From: Escherichia phage vB_EcoM_ESCO47
Length of the DNA: 64,000 bases
Strand: one strand, 5' to 3'
Sequence record: OM386662.1
The notes beneath the pieces were generated by a model. That model was given only the letters and a program-made list of their open reading frames with translations, was not told where the DNA came from and ran no database searches. A program made the position numbers and the translations under genes. Of the stretch, positions 27,822 to 36,045 are shown one piece after another; position 1 is the first letter of the stretch; the number at the start of each line of letters is the position of its first letter.

Positions 27822-28402
27822 TGAAAGCTAGCACATATCTTCAAATTGCTTATTTGATTTCTCAAGAATCAAAATGTTGTTCATGGAAAGTTGGTGCCGT
27901 CATTGAAAAAGATGGACGCATTATCTCTACTGGATATAATGGTTCACCTGCAGGTGGCGTTAACTGTTGCGAACAGGCATCCGAAAATGGTTGGTTGAAG
28001 AATAAACCGAGTCCGGTCATCGTTGCTGGACATAAAGAAGGCACTACGGCATTTGGACGGGCAGATAATTTTGTTTTGGCTAAAGAACATCGAGCGGCTC
28101 ATAGTGCATGGTCTGCTAATAATGAAATCCATGCTGAACTGAATGCAATTTTATTTGCAGCTCGTAAAGGTAATTCTATTGAAGGTGCTACGTTGTATAC
28201 GACGCTTTCTCCGTGTCCTGATTGCACTAAAGCTATTACACAGTCGGGTATTAAAAAGGTTGTATACGCAGAATTATATGACAGATCTCCTGAAAATTGG
28301 GCAGACATTCTTAAACAAGCTGGTATTGAAGTAATTCAGTACTCTCGTAATAATCTTCGTTCTCTGAATTGGGAACAAATCCGAAACTTTTGTGGTGAAT
28401 AA
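27821..28402 (+). CDS. cd: dCMP deaminase
   Basis: 193 aa (T4 length); zinc motifs HAELNA and SPCPDC. Confidence 0.95.
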   Translation: MKASTYLQIAYLISQESKCCSWKVGAVIEKDGRIISTGYNGSPAGGVNCCEQASENGWLKNKPSPVIVAGHKEGTTAFGRADNFVLAKEHRAAHSAWSANNEIHAELNAILFAARKGNSIEGATLYTTLSPCPDCTKAITQSGIKKVVYAELYDRSPENWADILKQAGIEVIQYSRNNLRSLNWEQIRNFCGE

Positions 28403-28403
28403 T

Positions 28404-28700
28404 ATGATTTTAACTGAACAAGAAACTACGGTTCTTCGTGAACGTATTAAAACTATTCTGTCTGTAGGCGTTCATTGTGTTGTATTTGAAAAGGCTAATG
28501 GTGATGTTCGTACGATGTTTGCCTCCCGCGATGAACTTGAAGTCAAATATGAAAATAGAAATCCGGCAACAGAAGTTCGTTCTGAACCTCGTGAATCAGT
28601 TCGAGCATTCGATACCAAGTTAGGTCAGTGGCGTTCTTTTCGCCTTGATAAAGTAATTTCGGTTGATGGTACTCCGGTAGAACGTTTGCTTCTTCTGTAA
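28404..28700 (+). CDS. hypothetical protein (31.x position)
   Basis: ORF 28392 starts at GTG; first ATG at 28404 gives 98 aa. Confidence 0.5.
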   Translation: MILTEQETTVLRERIKTILSVGVHCVVFEKANGDVRTMFASRDELEVKYENRNPATEVRSEPRESVRAFDTKLGQWRSFRLDKVISVDGTPVERLLLL

Positions 28701-28702
28701 TT

Positions 28703-28727
28703 TGCTTTACGTTTAATATGTTATTAT
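28703..28727 (+). promoter_or_regulatory. MotA-box middle promoter for gene 31
   Basis: TGCTTTA 28703-28709, TATTAT 28722-28727. Confidence 0.45.
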
Positions 28728-28757
28728 TAATCTATCGTTAAACAAAAAGGAAATAAG

Positions 28758-29090
28758 ATGTCTGAAGTACAACTCCCAATTCGTGCTGTTGGTGAATATG
28801 TTATTCTGGTTTCTGAACCCGCTCAAGCAGGTGATGAAGAAGTTACCGAATCAGGACTTGTGATTGGTAAACGTGTTCAAGGTGAAGTTCCTGAACTATG
28901 TGTAGTTCATTCTGTAGGTCCTGATGTTCCTGAAGGTTTCTGTGAAGTTGGTGATTTGACTCCACTACCAGTTGGACAAATTCGAAATGTTCCACATCCA
29001 TTTGTGGCTTTAGGACTTAAACAACCTAAAGAAATTAAACAGAAATTTGTCACTTGTCATTACAAAGCAATCCCGTGTCTTTATAAGTGA
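28758..29090 (+). CDS. 31: gp31, GroES-like co-chaperonin
   Basis: 110 aa; [34 protein letters not shown] matches recalled T4 gp31; MotA-box middle promoter upstream. Confidence 0.9.
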
Positions 29091-29216
29091 TATAAATAAT
29101 AATATGAATTGAGTTCCAATTCTATGAGGTAGTCTACAACTGAGAGATCTGTCGAAAGAAGATGAAATTCAGAAGAACGTGACTACCAAGTTTTAATCTC
29201 TAACGAGAATTTTTAA

Positions 29217-29465
29217 ATGATTAAACAATTACAACACGCTCTCGAACTGCAACGCTCTGCATGGAACAACGGTCACGAAAACTACGGTGCATCAATTGAT
29301 GTTGAAGCCGAAGCACTGGAAATCCTGCAGTATTTCAAACATCTGAATCCTGTCCAAGCTGATCTTCGTGATGTTCTGGCTCAGAAAGATGAACTGAAAT
29401 ATGCTAAGCCTCTGGCTTCTGCCGCACGTAAAGCAGTTCGTCATTTTGTTATTACTTTGAAATAA
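29217..29465 (+). CDS. rIII: RIII lysis-inhibition accessory protein
   Basis: 82 aa (T4 RIII length), position downstream of gene 31. Confidence 0.75.
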   Translation: MIKQLQHALELQRSAWNNGHENYGASIDVEAEALEILQYFKHLNPVQADLRDVLAQKDELKYAKPLASAARKAVRHFVITLK

Positions 29466-29628
29466 TTGCTATCATGCGTCAGCAAAAGGTTAGCTGTGTA
29501 AGTCATGGTAGGTATGATGACAGGTTTATGGTTATCCTGTCGGTAAATATACAAAACCTATGTTCCCCTCGAGGGCTTACGCAGGCAATGTCAATAAGTC
29601 CTGCATTTTCATTTAAAGAGAATTTATA

Positions 29629-29808
29629 ATGGCAAAACAAGCTAAAGCAAAGAAAGCAGTTGAAAAGAAAGTTGATGGTACCTCTAAACGCGCTGGATAC
29701 AAGCGTGGGTCGAACTCTCGTATTAATCAAACCGTTGAGAAGATCATGCGCAGAGCACGTGCAGTTCTTCGAGATGATGCTTCTCGTTTTGGAAAGGTTG
29801 TTGCATAA
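29629..29808 (+). CDS. small basic protein (59 aa)
   Basis: ATG with AAGAGA SD, Lys/Arg-rich, followed immediately by a UUCG hairpin terminator; below the ORF-track size cutoff. Confidence 0.45.
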   Translation: MAKQAKAKKAVEKKVDGTSKRAGYKRGSNSRINQTVEKIMRRARAVLRDDASRFGKVVA

Positions 29809-29813
29809 TTTTA

Positions 29814-29835
29814 GGGAGACTTCGGTCTCCCTTTT
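29814..29835 (+). terminator. intrinsic terminator (identical hairpin to 15685)
   Basis: GGGAGAC-UUCG-GUCUCCC plus UUUU. Confidence 0.7.
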
Positions 29836-29872
29836 GTGCGTTTAGGGCAGAAAAAGTTTAAAAAAAAAAGAT

Positions 29873-29901
29873 GTTTACTCTCCTGTAGGATGTGTTACTA
29901 T
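29873..29901 (+). promoter_or_regulatory. early promoter
   Basis: GTTTAC 29873-29878, TACTAT 29896-29901. Confidence 0.6.
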
Positions 29902-29942
29902 AGACTTGTACCACCTAATCAATAAAACAACCGGAGAATAAA

Positions 29943-30314
29943 ATGAACACTATCAATTTAAATGCTACAATTAAATGCCGTGACCATGATGGATATAAAT
30001 CTCAAGTTGTTAACGAGTTACAGTGGATGGTTCGTTCAGTTCAAGGTGATGTGGTTTATTGTACAACTCCTGATGGCCCTTCAGACGATTTTTGTTATCA
30101 TATCGAAATCGAAAACTTTTTCACTGGTGAAATTTACCGTCTGAATTCTACAGTTTATGGCTGTATTCGTTCTAAAACTTACGAAGATGAAGAAACTGGT
30201 TACTCTGAAGATGTTGTATGGTACGAAAACGCCAGAAATCGCGCAGAGACATTAATCGAGAAGATTAAAGCAAAAGGTGTTATTGATTCAGCTAAGTGGA
30301 CAAAAATCAAATAA
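29943..30314 (+). CDS. hypothetical early protein (30.x)
   Basis: 123-aa ORF, early promoter and GGAGAA SD. Confidence 0.6.
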   Translation: MNTINLNATIKCRDHDGYKSQVVNELQWMVRSVQGDVVYCTTPDGPSDDFCYHIEIENFFTGEIYRLNSTVYGCIRSKTYEDEETGYSEDVVWYENARNRAETLIEKIKAKGVIDSAKWTKIK

Positions 30315-30318
30315 AAAT

Positions 30319-30347
30319 GTTTACTTTGGTACAGGATATGTTATTAT
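30319..30347 (+). promoter_or_regulatory. early promoter
   Basis: GTTTAC 30319-30324, TATTAT 30342-30347. Confidence 0.6.
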
Positions 30348-30388
30348 ATACCTGTACCAACAAACAACTTAAACATCTGGAGAATAAA

Positions 30389-30754
30389 ATGAACTACACC
30401 AACTTCGAACGCAAATATGTTTCTAACGGTATCGCTGGTTCTATTGATACGATTTGCTTATGGAAACATAACAATGGTTCAGTATGTGAAATTGAGCAGT
30501 ATATGACACCTAATTATGTTTATATGCGATTTGAAAATGGTATCACCCTTTCAATTACAATGGAAGGTTCCAACTTCAAAATCGCTCTGGATGATGACTT
30601 CCGTCAACGTGATTTAGGTACTCATCCTTGTTGGAATGGTGATAATCGTAAGCTTCTGGTTAAAACTTGGATTCGCCATATTCTGAGTAATAGAGCTAAA
30701 CCTGAACATCTTGAAGCAATCTTTGATGTAGTTCTTAACGAATTCGATATTTGA
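30389..30754 (+). CDS. hypothetical early protein (30.x)
   Basis: ORF 30296..30754; ATG at 30389 chosen because the early promoter and GGAGAA SD lie directly upstream. Confidence 0.6.
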   Translation: MNYTNFERKYVSNGIAGSIDTICLWKHNNGSVCEIEQYMTPNYVYMRFENGITLSITMEGSNFKIALDDDFRQRDLGTHPCWNGDNRKLLVKTWIRHILSNRAKPEHLEAIFDVVLNEFDI

Positions 30755-30765
30755 TCTAACAAACA

Positions 30766-30779
30766 GGGGCTTCGGCCCC
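30766..30779 (+). terminator. UUCG hairpin after ORF 30389..30754 (weak U tract)
   Basis: GGGGC-UUCG-GCCCC. Confidence 0.35.
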
Positions 30780-30795
30780 TATTGAGGAAATTAAA

Positions 30796-30990
30796 ATGAA
30801 TTTATTTGTATCGCAAACTGTCCGGTTAAAAGGCGATGGAATTCCCGGAATGATTTCTAAAGTGTTACCTGCATTTAAATTGGGAGATATTCAGATCAAA
30901 GAAACCTATGTGGTCTTATGGGTAGACGGTACTGAAGATGTTCGTATGGGTTCTGAATTAGCAGTAATCAAATGTTTAAAGCGAGGATAA
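30796..30990 (+). CDS. hypothetical protein
   Basis: 64-aa ORF with GAGGAAA SD. Confidence 0.45.
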   Translation: MNLFVSQTVRLKGDGIPGMISKVLPAFKLGDIQIKETYVVLWVDGTEDVRMGSELAVIKCLKRG

Positions 30991-30991
30991 T

Positions 30992-31102
30992 ATGATTAAG
31001 AAGCTAATCCAAAAATTGCTTGGCACTGAAATAGTTGAAGTTACTTATCGTGTGACTGACGTAAGCCCACGGACCCGAAATATTGGACCGTACTAAAACA
31101 AT
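30992..31102 (+). CDS. small hypothetical ORF (36 aa)
   Basis: ATG with GAGGA SD 6 nt upstream, fills gap; speculative. Confidence 0.3.
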
Positions 31103-31115
31103 TGAGAGATTCATT

Positions 31116-31952
31116 ATGAAACCCGTGATTTTAACCGATATTGATGGAGTATGTTTGAGCTGGCAGTCAGGTCTTCCATATTTTGCACAAAAATATAATC
31201 TGCCTTTAGAACATATCCTTAAAATGATTCAAGACGAAAAGTTTATTGCTCCTGGTAAACTTTTCAATACTGACGATAATCTTGGTAAACAATTAATCGA
31301 AAAATATAATTGTTCTGATTTTATTCGTTATTTAGCTCCATATACTGACGCTTTGCGTGTAATCAATAAGCTCAAATCCGACTACAATTTTGTAGCTGTA
31401 ACGGCTCTAGGTGATTCAATTGATGCCCGTTTGAATAGACAATTTAATCTAAACGCATTGTTCCCTGGCGCTTTCTCAGAAGTTATGATGTGCGGTCATG
31501 ATTCTTCAAAGGAACAATTGTTTAAAAAGGCTAAAGAGAAATATAATATTGTATGTTATGTCGATGATTTGGCTCACCACTGTGACCATGCATCAGAAAT
31601 TCTTAATGTGCCGGTATACTGGTTAGCTCGTGGTGAACGTGATGCAATTCCACGTACTGCACAACGTGTTTATACGTGGGACGATATTGAGCATCGTTTG
31701 GTTCCACCCGAGCATAATTCAGATTCAGATCGTGAAGACCTTTTAAAACGATTGGCGGATTTGCTTAAAGAATCCGGTGCAACAAGTCCAGGTGCGTGGC
31801 CTAATCAAATTGGCGCTCCGTCGAATCCGTATACCTGGCGAACCCCAGGACCAACCGATATGCAGCCTCATTGGCGATACACTAATGTAGGCGAACATCC
31901 TGTTCCTCCGTATTGGGCAGTTCCACAAGGTTACGGCACAACTAAGGGTTAA
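31116..31952 (+). CDS. HAD-superfamily-like protein with Pro/Trp/Tyr-rich C-terminal tail
   Basis: ORF 31083 starts at TTG; ATG at 31116 with GAGAG SD; N-terminal ILTDIDGV (DxDG HAD motif I); tail ..PGAWPNQIGAPSNPYTWRTPGP.. Confidence 0.6.
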   Translation: MKPVILTDIDGVCLSWQSGLPYFAQKYNLPLEHILKMIQDEKFIAPGKLFNTDDNLGKQLIEKYNCSDFIRYLAPYTDALRVINKLKSDYNFVAVTALGDSIDARLNRQFNLNALFPGAFSEVMMCGHDSSKEQLFKKAKEKYNIVCYVDDLAHHCDHASEILNVPVYWLARGERDAIPRTAQRVYTWDDIEHRLVPPEHNSDSDREDLLKRLADLLKESGATSPGAWPNQIGAPSNPYTWRTPGPTDMQPHWRYTNVGEHPVPPYWAVPQGYGTTKG

Positions 31953-31954
31953 TT

Positions 31955-32224
31955 ATGTTTGTAGTTCATGATATTACAGACGGCAAAAACACAACGCGTG
32001 ACTACGGTCATGTTAACATGTTCTTTCGAGACTGGCCATTGTTTCGTTCAGTAAAAGACGCAGAAATATTTAAAGAGTGTGTTGAACAAGGGTTCATCTA
32101 CATTTCAGAATATTATGTTGAAGGTCTCGGTAAATGGATTACAACTTATCAGAAAACGCTGAAATCGCTTCTAGATGAAGTGGCTTATAATAGAACCGTA
32201 ACCAAAATCGAGGACATCAAATGA
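31955..32224 (+). CDS. hypothetical protein (30.1 position)
   Basis: 89-aa ORF, stop overlaps gene 30 start. Confidence 0.55.
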   Translation: MFVVHDITDGKNTTRDYGHVNMFFRDWPLFRSVKDAEIFKECVEQGFIYISEYYVEGLGKWITTYQKTLKSLLDEVAYNRTVTKIEDIK

Positions 32225-33714
32225 TTTTAGATATTTTAAACCAAATAGCCGCGATCGGTTCTACTAAAACAAAACAGGAAATCATTAAGAAAAATAAGGA
32301 CAACAAATTACTTGAACGTGTGTATCGTTTAACATATGCACGTGGTATCCAGTATTATATTAAGAAATGGCCAGGACCAGGTGAAAGGTCTCAAGCGTAT
32401 GGTCTTCTTGAATTAGATGACATGTTGGATTTTATTGAGTTCACATTAGCCACTCGTAAACTCACTGGTAATGCTGCAATTAAAGAGCTCATGGGTTATA
32501 TCGCTGACGGTAAACCTGATGATGTAGAAGTCCTTCGTCGTGTAATGATGCGCGACCTTGAAGTAGGTGCTTCAGTGTCTATCGCGAATAAGGTGTGGCC
32601 TGGACTTATTCAATTGCAACCACAGATGTTAGCATCGGCATATGATGAGAAATTGATTACTAAAAATATTAAATGGCCCGCATTTGCCCAATTAAAAGCA
32701 GATGGTGCTCGTTGTTTCGCTGAAGTTCGCGATGATGGTGTTCAATTCTTTTCTCGTGCCGGTAACGAATACCATGGTCTTACTCTATTAGCGGATGAAC
32801 TGATGGAAATGACTAAAGAAGCTCGTGAAAGACACCCTAATGGGGTTTTAATCGACGGTGAATTAGTTTATCATTCATTTGATATTAAAAAGGCTGTGAG
32901 CTCAGGAAATGACCTGTCGTTCTTATTTGGTGATAATGAAGAATCCGAAGAAGTACAGGTTGCAGACCGTAGCACTTCAAATGGTTTAGCAAATAAATCT
33001 CTTCAAGGGACTATTTCTCCTAAAGAAGCTGAAGGTATGGTTCTTCAAGCCTGGGACTATGTTCCTTTAGATGAAGTCTATTCTGATGGCAAAATTAAAG
33101 GTCAGAAATACGATGTTCGTTTTGCTGCTCTTGAAAATATGGCTGAAGGCTTTAAGCGAATTGAGCCAATTGAAAATCAGTTAGTTCGTAATCTTGATGA
33201 AGCTAAAGCGGTTTATAAAAAATATGTTGACCAAGGTCTTGAAGGTATTATCCTTAAAAACCGTGATTCATATTGGGAAAACAAACGCTCTAAGAACCTA
33301 ATTAAATTTAAAGAAGTTATTGATATCGCTTTAGAAGTTGTAGGATACTATGAACACTCTAAAGACCCTAACAAATTAGGTGGCGTCGAACTCGTATCAC
33401 GTTGTCGTCGTATTACAACCGATTGTGGTTCAGGTTTTAAAGATACAACTCATAAAACAGTTGATGGTGTAAAGGTTCTTATTCCTTTAGACGAGCGTCA
33501 TGATTTGGACCGTGAACGATTAATGGCCGAAGCTCGTGAAGGTAAATTAATTGGACGTATCGCTGATTGTGAATGTAATGGTTGGGTTCATTCTAAAGGC
33601 CGCGAAGGTACTGTAGGTATTTTCCTTCCAATTATTAAAGGGTTCCGTTTTGATAAAACAGAAGCGGATTCGTTTGAAGACGTATTTGGACCATGGTCCC
33701 AGACAGGTTTATAA
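32221..33714 (+). CDS. 30: ATP-dependent DNA ligase
   Basis: 497 aa; adenylation motif KADGARC; synteny. Confidence 0.95.
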   Translation: MILDILNQIAAIGSTKTKQEIIKKNKDNKLLERVYRLTYARGIQYYIKKWPGPGERSQAYGLLELDDMLDFIEFTLATRKLTGNAAIKELMGYIADGKPDDVEVLRRVMMRDLEVGASVSIANKVWPGLIQLQPQMLASAYDEKLITKNIKWPAFAQLKADGARCFAEVRDDGVQFFSRAGNEYHGLTLLADELMEMTKEARERHPNGVLIDGELVYHSFDIKKAVSSGNDLSFLFGDNEESEEVQVADRSTSNGLANKSLQGTISPKEAEGMVLQAWDYVPLDEVYSDGKIKGQKYDVRFAALENMAEGFKRIEPIENQLVRNLDEAKAVYKKYVDQGLEGIILKNRDSYWENKRSKNLIKFKEVIDIALEVVGYYEHSKDPNKLGGVELVSRCRRITTDCGSGFKDTTHKTVDGVKVLIPLDERHDLDRERLMAEAREGKLIGRIADCECNGWVHSKGREGTVGIFLPIIKGFRFDKTEADSFEDVFGPWSQTGL

Positions 33715-33902
33715 TGAAAGCTTATTTAGAAACAGTAGTTGTCGCCAATAAAGACGGTAGTGATGTTTCTGCCTCTTGTTCCCAAATTGTATTAGATTTT
33801 CCTAATAACGATTCCTATCATATTTTTATGGACAATTTTGATAAGTACGAAAAAGGCCCTAATTTTGAAGTTTATCGTACTTTGCTCCCGATTGTGGATT
33901 AA
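33714..33902 (+). CDS. hypothetical protein
   Basis: ORF 33693..33902; ATG at 33714 overlaps ligase stop (TAATG); followed by UUCG terminator. Confidence 0.45.
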   Translation: MKAYLETVVVANKDGSDVSASCSQIVLDFPNNDSYHIFMDNFDKYEKGPNFEVYRTLLPIVD

Positions 33903-33921
33903 GAGCCTTCGGGCTCTTTTT
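33902..33921 (+). terminator. intrinsic terminator upstream of alt
   Basis: AGAGCC-UUCG-GGCUCU plus UUUUU. Confidence 0.65.
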
Positions 33922-33957
33922 GGCATAAATATAAATTATTACTAAAAGGAAAACACT

Positions 33958-36045
33958 ATGTCTGAACAATTAAATGAAGTGTTTGAATCCGAAGGCAGTC
34001 TTCCTGTCGTCAATTTGAACCCTAAAGCTAAAGTTCCACAAGTCTGGAAAATTGGTGATGTTGATACAAATATTGTAGTTCGTTTATTCTCTTACCTTTC
34101 CGAAGGCGACGCTGTAAAACAAGTTAAACTTGGGGACAAATACGCTCATGTTGTTATTATGAGTCTGTCTGAAAAGGGTAATCTTGCTGAATTGAAAAAT
34201 GGCCTTGGTCCTGCTCCTATTGATGCAATCAACACCATTTTCAATACAGTATATGAACAGGTTAAAGCTCTTCGTATGGATGCAGTTCTGTTCCGATTCC
34301 CTACCAAGAAATTGAAAGGACGTGGACAGCAGCTTCAAACTCTTCTTGCTCGTTTAGTTTCTACTAAAACCGGCGGTCGTTTTAAAGTATTGTCTGCAAT
34401 GTATCAATTCACAGGTAAACACACCTATGTGATGATGGTTCGTAAAAATGCCAACATTGAAGATATTAAAGGCATCCCTAACATTAACACAGAGTTGTAC
34501 ACGAAAGTAGATTCTGATGTTGGTGAAGTTTATGTGAGTAAAAAGACTGGCGAAAAGGTCACCAAAGAAACGGCTATCGCCGGTTCTATTGCTGCTGTAG
34601 AAGAAAAACGTAAAGATAAGCCTGTTATTGCTCGTACTAAAATTTCTCGTCGTGCTATTGCAGCAAGTCAATCTTTAGAAGCCGACCGACAAGAAGGTGA
34701 GTTATTCCAGAAATACGAAAATTCTGCTAAAGAAGTTAGTGGCCCAGCTACAGCCGAATTACTTCCTGAAGCATATGAAATCGTACTAGCCCAAGCATCG
34801 TCCACAGCAAAAGGCACTTTAGTTGCTGATATCGAAAATAAGATTTATAATCGTATTGATGAATCCTTTAAATTTGCTGATGAAGTTTCTTATGGTAGTG
34901 TTATTAAGCCGTCTTTAGAAAAGTTTGCTAAGAAAATTAAAACCGAAAAAACAACATCTGTTAAAGCATTAGCTGCTTTTGTTGAAGCTGCAAACGAAAT
35001 TGCAGACTCTATTAAAGACGAATGGTTTGAAGATTTTAGACGAGATAATTTCCAACTGGCTGACGACGTTTTAGCTGAAGTATCTGAAAGAACTTGGAAA
35101 CAACGTAAATCAGCATTCTTGTCTAATGTGATGTATACTTATGCACGAGAATCGGCTAGAGGTACCTTTAATATAACAATGAATCGGGACCCTAAACAAT
35201 ACTCTGTTGCTGAAAAACGAGCTATTCGTGAATATGCCTCTTCTGCGTATACTGATATCAATAATATGTTGTTAGGTCGTTATAAACCAGATTTTTACGA
35301 TGTTGCAGATGAAGATGAAGTTAAACGCGCTATTGATGGTCTTGATTCGGCGTTTTTAAATGGAGACCGTTTACCTGAAGGGCTAACGTTATATAGAGCT
35401 CAGTCTATCAGAATGCCTATTTACGAAGCGATGGTTAAAAATAAGGTATTCTACTTCAGAAACTATGTTTCCACTTCACTAGCTCCTATTATTTTCGGCG
35501 GGTTTAAAGAGAACGTTGCCATTGGACTTGCTCCTGAAGAAGTTCGCAAAGATCTTAACATTGACAATAATGACGAAGGTGTTACTATTTCTCCTAGTCT
35601 AGTAAGAACAGCTATGCATGCGCCAGAACAAATCCGTGTTAACGTTGGATGGGCTATTGATGGCGCCCATAAAGTTAACGTGATTTATCCAGGACAGTTG
35701 AGTAATCACCCTAATGAGCAAGAAATTATTTTGCCTAGAGGCATTCTCTTGCAGATAAATAAAATTACAGATGCGTCATCTGACACTGGTGCAGGTTTAG
35801 AATCCAACCTTAAATTTATTCAAGCTGAAGTCATGTCCTCAGACCAGTTGGACGAAGCTGTCATTTACGATGGTGACGTTCTCATGGAAACAGGCGAGGT
35901 GGTTGCTATGACGGGTGAAATCGAATCAGATGAGCCGGTATCGTTCTCCTCATTTGTAGAAAAAACTAGTGCACCTAAAGGTTTGAAATTGCTGGCATCT
36001 TTAATGGATTTAGAATCAGTTCCATTTAAATTTGTCCAAGGATAG
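33958..36045 (+). CDS. alt: Alt, packaged ADP-ribosyltransferase
   Basis: 695 aa; ART-like triad near C-terminal half (YRAQ.., ..STSLA.., ..EQEIILPRG); position between 30 and 54. Confidence 0.75.
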   Translation: MSEQLNEVFESEGSLPVVNLNPKAKVPQVWKIGDVDTNIVVRLFSYLSEGDAVKQVKLGDKYAHVVIMSLSEKGNLAELKNGLGPAPIDAINTIFNTVYEQVKALRMDAVLFRFPTKKLKGRGQQLQTLLARLVSTKTGGRFKVLSAMYQFTGKHTYVMMVRKNANIEDIKGIPNINTELYTKVDSDVGEVYVSKKTGEKVTKETAIAGSIAAVEEKRKDKPVIARTKISRRAIAASQSLEADRQEGELFQKYENSAKEVSGPATAELLPEAYEIVLAQASSTAKGTLVADIENKIYNRIDESFKFADEVSYGSVIKPSLEKFAKKIKTEKTTSVKALAAFVEAANEIADSIKDEWFEDFRRDNFQLADDVLAEVSERTWKQRKSAFLSNVMYTYARESARGTFNITMNRDPKQYSVAEKRAIREYASSAYTDINNMLLGRYKPDFYDVADEDEVKRAIDGLDSAFLNGDRLPEGLTLYRAQSIRMPIYEAMVKNKVFYFRNYVSTSLAPIIFGGFKENVAIGLAPEEVRKDLNIDNNDEGVTISPSLVRTAMHAPEQIRVNVGWAIDGAHKVNVIYPGQLSNHPNEQEIILPRGILLQINKITDASSDTGAGLESNLKFIQAEVMSSDQLDEAVIYDGDVLMETGEVVAMTGEIESDEPVSFSSFVEKTSAPKGLKLLASLMDLESVPFKFVQG

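What the first reader, a model, noticed from the sequence alone, without database searches (positions are those of the whole stretch)
31116..31952. HAD-like enzyme fused to a Pro/Trp/Tyr-rich tail
The N-terminus ILTDIDGV is a canonical HAD motif I. The last 60 residues are low-complexity and rich in P, W, Y and G (PGAWPNQIGAPSNPYTWRTPGPTDMQPHWRY..PVPPYWAVPQGY), unlike the rest of the proteome here. This could be a phosphatase or nucleotidase targeted through an aromatic, proline-rich interaction module.
Basis: partly seen in the sequence, partly recalled or inferred. Interest (0 to 1): 0.4.

Follow-up and report, generated by a model that had tools for sequence, protein, structure and literature searches.

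The report
T4 gp30.2-type phosphatase with floppy tail
This gene is the counterpart of the uncharacterised phage T4 gene 30.2: a small phosphatase, probably acting on nucleotides, that carries a floppy proline/tryptophan-rich tail found in many related phages, so it is a real feature but an ordinary one.

Summary
Window 31116-31952 (+) is one 278-aa ORF, and its last ~56 residues are the most Pro/Trp/Tyr-rich stretch in the 64 kb. It is the orthologue of T4 gene 30.2 (72% identity, same position upstream of 30.1 and DNA ligase) in a Mosigvirus-like phage.

- **Core (residues 1-195):** a confidently predicted HAD phosphatase with a C1 cap. All four catalytic motifs are invariant in 95 homologues. 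Fold searches return only HAD enzymes. The specific Pfam family most often hit by distant relatives is NT5C, the 5'(3')-deoxyribonucleotidases. The window protein itself does not reach that model.
- **Tail:** a helix (203-219) followed by a segment predicted to be disordered. About half of the 105 homologues have such a tail, and the named ones among them infect Enterobacterales. Most other relatives are about 200 aa and lack it.
- **Tail conservation:** tail sequences turn over fast between genera but stay Pro/Trp-rich and keep a W-x-x-P motif (TWRTPG here and in T4). Within Mosigvirus the proximal tail is under purifying selection.
- **Tail is not a shared module:** it was found on no other protein.

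The partner and role of the tail, and the substrate of the enzyme, remain inferred. No paper on gp30.2 turned up in the library. Verdict: new member of a known but uncharacterised family; modest interest.

The parts
31116..31952 (+). Whole CDS: orthologue of T4 gene 30.2 (278 aa plus stop)
   Evidence: ORF. It is 72% identical to T4 gp30.2 and 94% to Escherichia phage AV114, with the same position upstream of 30.1 and DNA ligase. PHROG 420, E=1e-76.
31104..31109 (+). Shine-Dalgarno-like GAGAGA, 6 nt before the ATG
   Evidence: Read directly from the sequence. Function is inferred.
31116..31700 (+). HAD phosphatase core, residues 1-195 (Rossmann-like domain plus C1 cap)
31137..31151 (+). HAD motif I, DIDGV (D8 nucleophile, D10 acid/base)
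   Evidence: D8 and D10 are invariant in 95 homologues. They align to the nucleophile and acid/base positions of mouse cdN 2jao.
31152..31340 (+). C1 cap, residues 13-75, five predicted helices. It includes the invariant W16, S18, Y64, N65 and S67.
   Evidence: Helices at 16-26, 32-40, 46-49, 54-65 and 68-72. Invariant residues. W16 aligns with the Phe eight residues after the nucleophile in cdN.
31401..31403 (+). HAD motif II, Thr96
   Evidence: Conserved in at least 90% of 95 homologues. It lies at the end of strand 91-96.
31509..31511 (+). HAD motif III, Lys132
   Evidence: Invariant in 95 close homologues and in 140 distant ones.
31563..31568 (+). HAD motif IV, Asp150-Asp151 (Mg2+ ligands)
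   Evidence: Invariant. They lie at the end of strand 145-150.
31701..31781 (+). Linker plus amphipathic helix, residues 196-222 (helix 203-219, DREDLLKRLADLLKESG)
   Evidence: AF2 predicts a helix. pLDDT is 76 for residues 201-210 and 92 for 211-220. A helix is also present at this place in the CC31-type homologue.
31782..31949 (+). Pro/Trp/Tyr/Gly-rich tail, residues 223-278, predicted disordered
   Evidence: pLDDT 46-55. Composition. Tails across the family have Pro 14.7% and Trp 4.9%, against 4.2% and 1.3% in the cores.
31833..31850 (+). Conserved short motif TWRTPG, residues 240-245 (family form: aromatic-[R/K/V]-x-P)
   Evidence: Identical in T4 and in 9 of 10 orthologues compared. W-x-x-P occurs in 30 of 57 tails, against 16.9 +/- 3.2 in shuffles.
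31869..31949 (+). Distal tail cassette, residues 252-278 (window type: HWRYTNVGEHPVPPYWAVPQGYGTTKG). Most Mosigvirus carry an unrelated Trp-rich end in its place.
   Evidence: This is not a frameshift of the RB69-type end. The full window-type tail is matched over at least 80% of its length in 9 phage records.
31700..31716 (.). Recombination breakpoint at the core/tail boundary
   Evidence: Identity to AV114 is 76-90% per 100 nt over 31116-31715 and 93-100% from 31716 into the ligase gene. pS is 0.58 in the core against 0.05-0.4 in the tail.

Best explanation
The gene is the orthologue of T4 early-region gene 30.2. Residues 1-195 form a Mg2+-dependent HAD phosphomonoesterase. D8 attacks the phosphate to form an aspartyl-phosphate intermediate. 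D10 acts as the acid/base. T96 and K132 hold the phosphate. D150 and D151 bind Mg2+. A helical C1 cap closes over the site, which fits a small substrate. The most likely substrate is a (deoxy)nucleoside monophosphate, as in the NT5C 5'(3')-deoxyribonucleotidases, with W16 in the place of the base-stacking Phe. Residues 196-222 form a linker and a helix. Residues 223-278 are an intrinsically disordered Pro/Trp-rich extension. It carries a short linear motif (TWRTPG) that most likely tethers the enzyme to a partner protein or regulates it. Shown here: orthology, fold, motif conservation, predicted disorder, the distribution of the tail and selection acting on it. Inferred: the substrate, the catalytic activity, and any binding by the tail.
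For: - **Orthology and synteny:**
- **Catalytic residues:** D8, D10, K132, D150 and D151 are invariant and T96 is conserved in at least 90% of 95 homologues. W16, S18, Y64, N65, S67, R108 and N111 are also invariant.
- **Link to nucleotidases:** the top PDB sequence hit (E=0.16, not significant) is cdN, with W16 aligned to its Phe. Of the 139 best relatives from a profile search of 1.84 billion proteins, 40 hit Pfam NT5C (best E=4e-10), against 24 for HAD_2 and 23 for Hydrolase. BFVD hits include phage proteins named '5' nucleotidase'.
- **Tail:** pLDDT is below 55 in two family members. The tails stay Pro/Trp-rich across genera and W-x-x-P is enriched at a consistent position. pN/pS for residues 223-251 is 0-0.16 within Mosigvirus, compared with 0.08 for the core. 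Tails of Karamvirus and Mosigvirus still recognise each other (E=2e-3).
Against: - The window protein does not reach Pfam NT5C at all, and HAD_2 scores only E=0.25. NCBIfam gives nothing.
- No biochemical or genetic data on gp30.2 were found.
- A nucleotidase looks counter-productive for a phage that salvages dNMPs.
- The tail is dispensable in many relatives, including E. coli phages 75-78% identical in the core.
- The distal 27 residues are swapped for unrelated sequence within one genus.
- Between T4 and this phage the tail evolves nearly neutrally (pN/pS 0.64-1.0).
- AF2 found no docking site for the tail.
Confidence: 0.6

Rival explanations
1. The tail has no function. It is a tolerated C-terminal extension created by drift or relocation of the stop codon, and only the HAD core matters.
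For: About 45 of 105 homologues end within a few residues of the core, and almost all of 1,098 wider family clusters are 190-220 aa. The distal 27 residues are replaced by unrelated sequence within Mosigvirus. Divergence between T4 and the window is near neutral. AF2 predicts disorder.
Against: Within Mosigvirus, residues 223-251 show 2-9 synonymous against 0-3 non-synonymous differences per pair (pN/pS 0-0.16). The Pro/Trp bias and the W-x-x-P motif persist across genera whose tails otherwise do not align, with 30 of 57 tails against 16.9 +/- 3.2 in shuffles. A second motif, GTGIEYLxxQPT, is conserved in T4, Karamvirus and other genera. Both alternative distal cassettes are Trp-rich.
Confidence: 0.2
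2. The enzyme acts on nucleic-acid ends, as a DNA/RNA 3'-phosphatase like the phosphatase domain of T4 polynucleotide kinase. It would prepare nicks for the neighbouring DNA ligase, and the tail would bind DNA or the ligase.
Confidence: 0.07
3. The odd composition of the tail reflects an overlapping element, such as an antisense or alternative-frame gene or a regulatory DNA site, rather than selection on this protein.
For: A 61-aa antisense ORF at 31743-31928 overlaps the tail, and local GC is raised.
Against: The antisense open frame is not conserved: the longest stop-free run is 25 codons in RB69 against 69 here. The GC rise sits at codon positions 1 and 2 of the sense frame. Synonymous changes in the sense frame dominate. 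No promoter-like or terminator-like site lies in the tail.
Confidence: 0.03

Closest known systems
Phage T4 gp30.2 (uncharacterised '32.4 kDa protein' between genes 30 and rIII; PHROG 420)
   Same: Orthologue. 72% identity overall and near-identical over residues 1-195. Same length (278 aa) and same gene neighbourhood. Same architecture of core, helix and Pro/Trp/Tyr-rich tail, with an identical TWRTPG.
   Different: The tail beyond TWRTPG is unrelated. T4 ends with GGIEYLYNRPTCGDNIFQGAF, a motif shared with many genera, whereas the window ends with PPYWAVPQGYGTTKG. In T4 the start of the gene overlaps the stop of 30.3 (adfN). In the window 30.3 is absent.
Mosigvirus (RB69-group) gp30.2
   Same: Residues 196-251 are nearly identical. 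Nine phage records match at least 80% of the window-type tail; AV114 and 308Ecol101PP match all of it at 96-98% identity.
   Different: Most Mosigvirus end with PWWTIQNFPLDSSKWTWSINC instead. The window's core is a diverged allele, 76-90% nucleotide identity with pS of about 0.58.
NT5C family: cytosolic and mitochondrial 5'(3')-deoxyribonucleotidases (cdN, mdN; Pfam PF06941)
   Same: HAD core with a helical C1 cap and all four motifs. An aromatic residue lies eight positions after the nucleophile (W16 against Phe). It is the best Foldseek hit and the only PDB sequence hit, and 40 of 139 relatives reach the Pfam model.
   Different: About 15-17% identity. The window protein does not score on PF06941. 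cdN and mdN have no Pro/Trp-rich tail. Activity was not tested.
Phosphatase domain of T4 polynucleotide kinase (PseT)
   Different: PNK has no cap and acts on nucleic-acid 3' ends, and it is fused to a kinase. gp30.2 has a C1 cap and no kinase domain.

Membership tests
HAD superfamily phosphatases | Rossmann-like alpha/beta core fold | tested here: met
HAD superfamily phosphatases | Motif I DxDx[T/V], with the second Asp that separates phosphatases from dehalogenases | tested here: met
   D8-I-D10-G-V. Both Asp residues are invariant in 95 homologues.
HAD superfamily phosphatases | Motif II (Ser/Thr), motif III (Lys) and motif IV (DD or equivalent) | tested here: met
   T96 is conserved in at least 90%. 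K132, D150 and D151 are invariant. K132 is also invariant in 140 distant relatives.
HAD superfamily phosphatases | Score above the curated Pfam HAD thresholds | tested here: not met
   HAD_2 scores E=0.25, 11.9 bits against a cut-off of 23.8. NCBIfam gives no hit. Membership therefore rests on fold and motifs.
HAD superfamily phosphatases | Mg2+-dependent phosphoryl transfer through an aspartyl-phosphate intermediate | not testable with these tools
   Needs an enzyme assay.
NT5C 5'(3')-deoxyribonucleotidases (PF06941) | Match to the family profile above the gathering score | tested here: not met
   The window protein has no NT5C hit at E<=1. Of 139 relatives, 40 hit NT5C at E<=0.01, best 4.2e-10, and P0230 scores 26.4 bits against a cut-off of 24.8. 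The link is transitive only.
NT5C 5'(3')-deoxyribonucleotidases (PF06941) | Helical C1 cap with an aromatic base-stacking residue eight positions after the nucleophile | tested here: met
   Cap helices lie within residues 13-75. The invariant W16 aligns with the Phe of 2jao. The role of that Phe is cited from memory of the mdN/cdN structure papers.
NT5C 5'(3')-deoxyribonucleotidases (PF06941) | Closest structural neighbours are nucleotidases | tested here: inconclusive
NT5C 5'(3')-deoxyribonucleotidases (PF06941) | Hydrolysis of dNMPs | not testable with these tools
   Needs an enzyme assay.
T4 gp30.2 family (PHROG 420) | Full-length profile match and a conserved position upstream of 30.1 and DNA ligase | tested here: met
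   PHROG 420 at E=9.6e-77 over residues 1-253. Synteny.

The most novel reading that the evidence does not exclude
The tail is a fast-evolving, motif-bearing disordered tether that docks a nucleotide phosphatase onto a host or phage partner as part of counter-defence. The gene sits in the T4 early region beside 30.3, which is AdfN, the NADAR enzyme that reverses DarT1 ADP-ribosylation of DNA (bioRxiv 10.1101/2024.07.11.602962). An enzyme of this kind could remove nucleotide-derived danger signals. One example is the m6-dAMP released by phage degradation of host DNA, which triggers the PUA-Cal-HAD defence (bioRxiv 10.64898/2026.01.15.699771). Swapping of tail cassettes, and of core against tail, would then reflect an arms race. 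None of this was tested here. Only adjacency, the fold and the evolutionary pattern of the tail support it.
Probability: 0.1. Interest if true: 0.7.

Novelty: new member of a known kind. Interest (0 to 1): 0.3.

Why it matters
gp30.2 homologues were found in about 1,400 phage genome records, including the model phage T4, yet the gene still has no assigned function. This analysis narrows it to an intact, capped HAD phosphatase nearest to the deoxyribonucleotidases. It also shows that the unusual tail is a recurrent feature under selection, with a small conserved motif (TWRTPG / W-x-x-P) that can be mutated directly. That makes a simple experiment possible in T4 itself. If the enzyme proves to be a nucleotidase, it would add an unexpected catabolic step to a textbook pathway in which the phage salvages host dNMPs. 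As a scan result, however, it is an orthologue of a known uncharacterised gene and not a new kind of system.

Tried and rejected
- **Simple frameshift between the two Mosigvirus tail endings:** rejected. No reading frame of either DNA yields the other peptide, and the DNA itself is diverged, with a 15-nt length difference.
- **Tail as a module shared with other proteins:** tblastn of two tail types against 50,697 phage records hit one place per record, always at the 30.2 locus. A tail-only search of 5.8 billion proteins returned one fragment of the same gene. That search collected only 2 candidates, so its sensitivity was poor.
- **Foreign GC-rich insert:** rejected on GC3.
- **Conserved antisense gene:** rejected.
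- **Second AF2 run to see whether the GTGIEYLxxQPT motif docks on the core:** I used a CC31-type homologue. The alignment was shallow (22 sequences, mean pLDDT 67) and the tail stayed below 50, so the result is uninformative.
- **Direct sequence searches of the PDB, with the single sequence and with a profile:** only a non-significant cdN hit (E=0.16 and 0.43).
- **Literature searches for gp30.2, and for HAD or nucleotidase in T4-like phages:** nothing found. One search was wasted on too loose a query.
- **Fusion of 30.2 to 30.1 (P0020):** it exists on a single 1.4-kb metagenome contig, which is too weak to use as Rosetta-stone evidence.

Full report
**1. What is at the coordinates**

Window 31116-31952 (+) is a single ORF of 278 codons plus a stop. 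The ORF lister begins it at TTG 31083. Every homologue starts MKP at ATG 31116, and GAGAGA lies 6 nt upstream of that ATG.

The composition claim holds. In the last 60 residues Pro is 18.3% against 3.6% in the window's 57 ORFs of at least 120 aa. Trp is 6.7% against 1.3%. Leu, Phe and Cys are absent. Of 15,155 sliding 60-aa windows, the only six that reach its P+W+Y count lie in this tail.

The region is a local GC peak, 0.51-0.52 against about 0.36. The excess sits at codon positions 1 and 2 (GC2 0.64 against 0.32), while GC3 is only 0.36 against 0.27. Amino-acid composition drives the peak, not foreign DNA.

**2. Identity**

The window is a T4-like phage of the RB69 group (Mosigvirus), about 94% identical in nucleotides to known isolates over 28000-36000. 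The protein is the orthologue of T4 gene 30.2.
- It is 72% identical to T4 gp30.2 (also 278 aa) and 94% identical to Escherichia phage AV114.
- It occupies the same position immediately upstream of 30.1 (DUF3045), DNA ligase gp30 and alt.
- tblastn finds a homologue in 1,438 phage records.
- It matches PHROG 420, 'unknown function', at E=1e-76.
- Some GenBank annotators already label it 'putative phosphatase', 'HAD-like protein' or '5' nucleotidase'.
- No paper in the library mentions gp30.2.

**3. The core is an intact HAD phosphatase**

Sequence profiles barely detect it. Pfam HAD_2 gives E=0.25, NCBIfam gives nothing, and the top PDB sequence hit is mouse cytosolic 5'(3')-deoxyribonucleotidase 2jao at E=0.16. 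Structure settles the question.
- With a 95-sequence alignment, AlphaFold2 gives pLDDT 93-98 for residues 1-190.
- Foldseek against the PDB gives 124 hits with E<=1e-3, and every listed hit is a HAD-fold protein. 2jao is first at E=1e-8.

Across 95 homologues D8, D10, K132, D150 and D151 are invariant, and T96 is conserved in at least 90%. These are motifs I to IV. The second Asp of motif I marks a phosphatase or phosphotransferase rather than a dehalogenase; this is established HAD knowledge, cited from memory. Residues 13-75 form a five-helix C1 cap, which in HAD enzymes goes with small substrates.

**4. Which HAD subfamily**

- **PDB hits.** cdN is the only PDB sequence hit and the top Foldseek hit. 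The nucleotidases give among the best target-normalised TM scores, 0.60-0.69.
- **Aligned aromatic residue.** The invariant W16 aligns with the Phe eight residues after the nucleophile in cdN. That Phe stacks on the base in the mdN and cdN structures (cited from memory).
- **Transitive homology.** A profile of the family searched against 1.84 billion representative proteins found 1,098 clusters at E<=1e-3. Of the best 139, 40 hit Pfam NT5C (best E=4e-10), against 24 for HAD_2 and 23 for Hydrolase.

The window protein itself fails the NT5C model. I therefore describe it as NT5C-like and do not file it as a member. The substrate is inferred.

**5. The tail**

AF2 places a helix at 203-219 (pLDDT is 76 for residues 201-210 and 92 for 211-220) and leaves 223-278 below pLDDT 55. 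A second family member behaves the same way, although that model was poor overall.

*Distribution.* Of 105 homologues, 57 carry tails of at least 40 residues and about 45 end within a few residues of the core.
- Where the phage is named, tailed forms come from phages of Enterobacterales: Escherichia, Klebsiella, Enterobacter, Citrobacter, Erwinia, Salmonella and Yersinia.
- Tail-less forms include phages of Acinetobacter, Aeromonas, Vibrio, Shewanella and Pseudomonas.
- Some E. coli phages that are 75-78% identical in the core also lack the tail.
- The wider family is almost entirely 190-220 aa.

*What is conserved.* Tail sequences differ strongly between genera, but several features persist.
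- Tails share composition: Pro 14.7% and Trp 4.9%, against 4.2% and 1.3% in the cores.
- They share a motif, aromatic-[R/K/V]-x-P, placed mostly 30-50 residues after the core. Examples are TWRTPG in T4 and Mosigvirus, KKWVNPG in Karamvirus, EEWVKPMTP and DWWKSPITP.
- W-x-x-P occurs in 30 of 57 tails against 16.9 +/- 3.2 in composition-preserving shuffles, with a maximum of 28 in 1,000 shuffles. The sequences are related to each other, so this is an indication and not a probability.
- Many genera, T4 included, also keep GTGIEYLxxQPT near the C-terminus. The window lacks it.
- Tails of Karamvirus and Mosigvirus still detect each other at E=2e-3, which points to common descent.

**6. Selection and mosaicism**

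Within Mosigvirus, pN/pS for residues 223-251 is 0-0.16, with 2-9 synonymous against 0-3 non-synonymous differences per pair. The core gives 0.08. The proximal tail is therefore translated and constrained.

Between T4 and the window the tail is close to neutral (pN/pS 0.64-1.0). Those values are saturated and the alignment is uncertain.

Mosigvirus carries two unrelated distal endings.
- The RB69 type is PWWTIQNFPLDSSKWTWSINC.
- The window type is HWRYTNVGEHPVPPYWAVPQGYGTTKG. Nine phage records match at least 80% of the window-type tail.
- These are not frameshift versions of each other.

The window gene is itself a mosaic. Identity to AV114 is 76-90% per 100 nt across the core (31116-31715) and 93-100% from 31716 through 30.1 and the ligase gene. 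The breakpoint falls at the core/tail boundary, so core and tail have separate histories.

**7. Rivals**

- **Functionless extension.** This is plausible for the distal part. It fits poorly with the selection on the proximal tail and the persistence of the motif.
- **PNK-like nucleic-acid 3'-phosphatase serving the nearby ligase.** The C1 cap disfavours it, as does the 40-to-1 ratio of NT5C to HAD_PNKP hits among relatives.
- **Overlapping antisense gene at 31743-31928.** The frame is not conserved: the longest stop-free run is 25 codons in RB69.
- **Tail as a shared module.** It was not found on any other protein.

**8. Context**

The upstream neighbour in T4 and RB69 is gene 30.3, whose stop overlaps the start of 30.2. 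It was recently shown to be AdfN, a NADAR DNA ADP-ribosylglycohydrolase that counters the DarTG1 defence (bioRxiv 10.1101/2024.07.11.602962).

The window has no 30.3 and no 30.6, and the 72-aa gene upstream of 30.3 is truncated to 34 codons. So 30.2 is kept without 30.3. Adjacency to a counter-defence gene is the only hint of an anti-defence role, and nothing tested here supports one.

**9. Verdict**

This is a new member of a known, uncharacterised family that is found in about 1,400 phage genome records. Interest is modest. The useful outputs are a concrete biochemical hypothesis and a six-residue motif that can be tested in T4.

Noticed in passing
window 30755-31115: Gene 30.3 (adfN, the NADAR anti-DarTG1 counter-defence gene of T-even phages) is absent from the whole 64-kb window, and so is 30.6. 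The 72-aa gene that precedes 30.3 in AV114 is truncated to 34 codons (30992-31096). Homology to AV114 resumes 22 nt before the 30.2 start. By the logic of bioRxiv 10.1101/2024.07.11.602962, this phage would be predicted sensitive to DarTG1 unless another factor compensates.
   Followed up: partly
window 31116-31715 versus 31716-33714: The gene is a mosaic. Its HAD core is a diverged allele, 76-90% nucleotide identity to AV114 and pS of about 0.58 to every Mosigvirus sampled. The tail, 30.1 and the ligase gene are 93-100% identical to AV114. The breakpoint coincides with the domain boundary.
   Followed up: yes
L014 (RB69) 301-1116, L003, L015-L018 versus window 31869-31949: Mosigvirus gp30.2 has two alternative, unrelated Trp-rich C-terminal endings (21 aa against 27 aa). 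Some members also carry a 3-residue TTR insertion before TWRTPG. JK36 has TWRTQG.
   Followed up: partly
A4 alignment (T4 L001 3001-3834; P0021, P0026 and others): A second conserved tail motif, GTGIEYLxxQPT, lies near the C-terminus in T4, the Karamvirus (CC31) group and several other genera. Glu is invariant and Tyr, Pro and Thr are nearly so. The motif is missing from the window and from RB69-type tails.
   Followed up: partly
L020 234-1142 (Logan SRR21148734 contig, protein P0020): A tail-less 30.2 core is fused in frame to a 30.1 (DUF3045) homologue on a single 1.4-kb metagenome contig. It could hint at a functional link or could be an assembly or stop-loss artefact.
   Followed up: partly
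P0065, P0067 (Yersinia phage phiR1-RT type); P0090; P0108, P0151, P0161, P0198: Some relatives carry other C-terminal or N-terminal additions in place of the Pro/Trp tail. Examples are a conserved extension of about 110 aa in Yersinia phages, a Cys-rich extension of 148 aa, and proteins of 365-660 aa. No Pfam match was found for these extra parts.
   Followed up: no
window 29943-30314: The 30.8-position gene (123 aa, PHROG 1507) is only 39% identical to T4 gp30.8, while the flanking 30.9 and 30.7 are 96% identical to T4. This is another sign of local mosaicism.
   Followed up: no
window 30296-30754: The ORF lister extends the 30.7 homologue to a GTG start (152 aa). The Pfam Phage_T4_Gp30_7 and T4 alignments begin at residue 32 (ATG 30389), so the true product is probably 121 aa.
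   Followed up: partly
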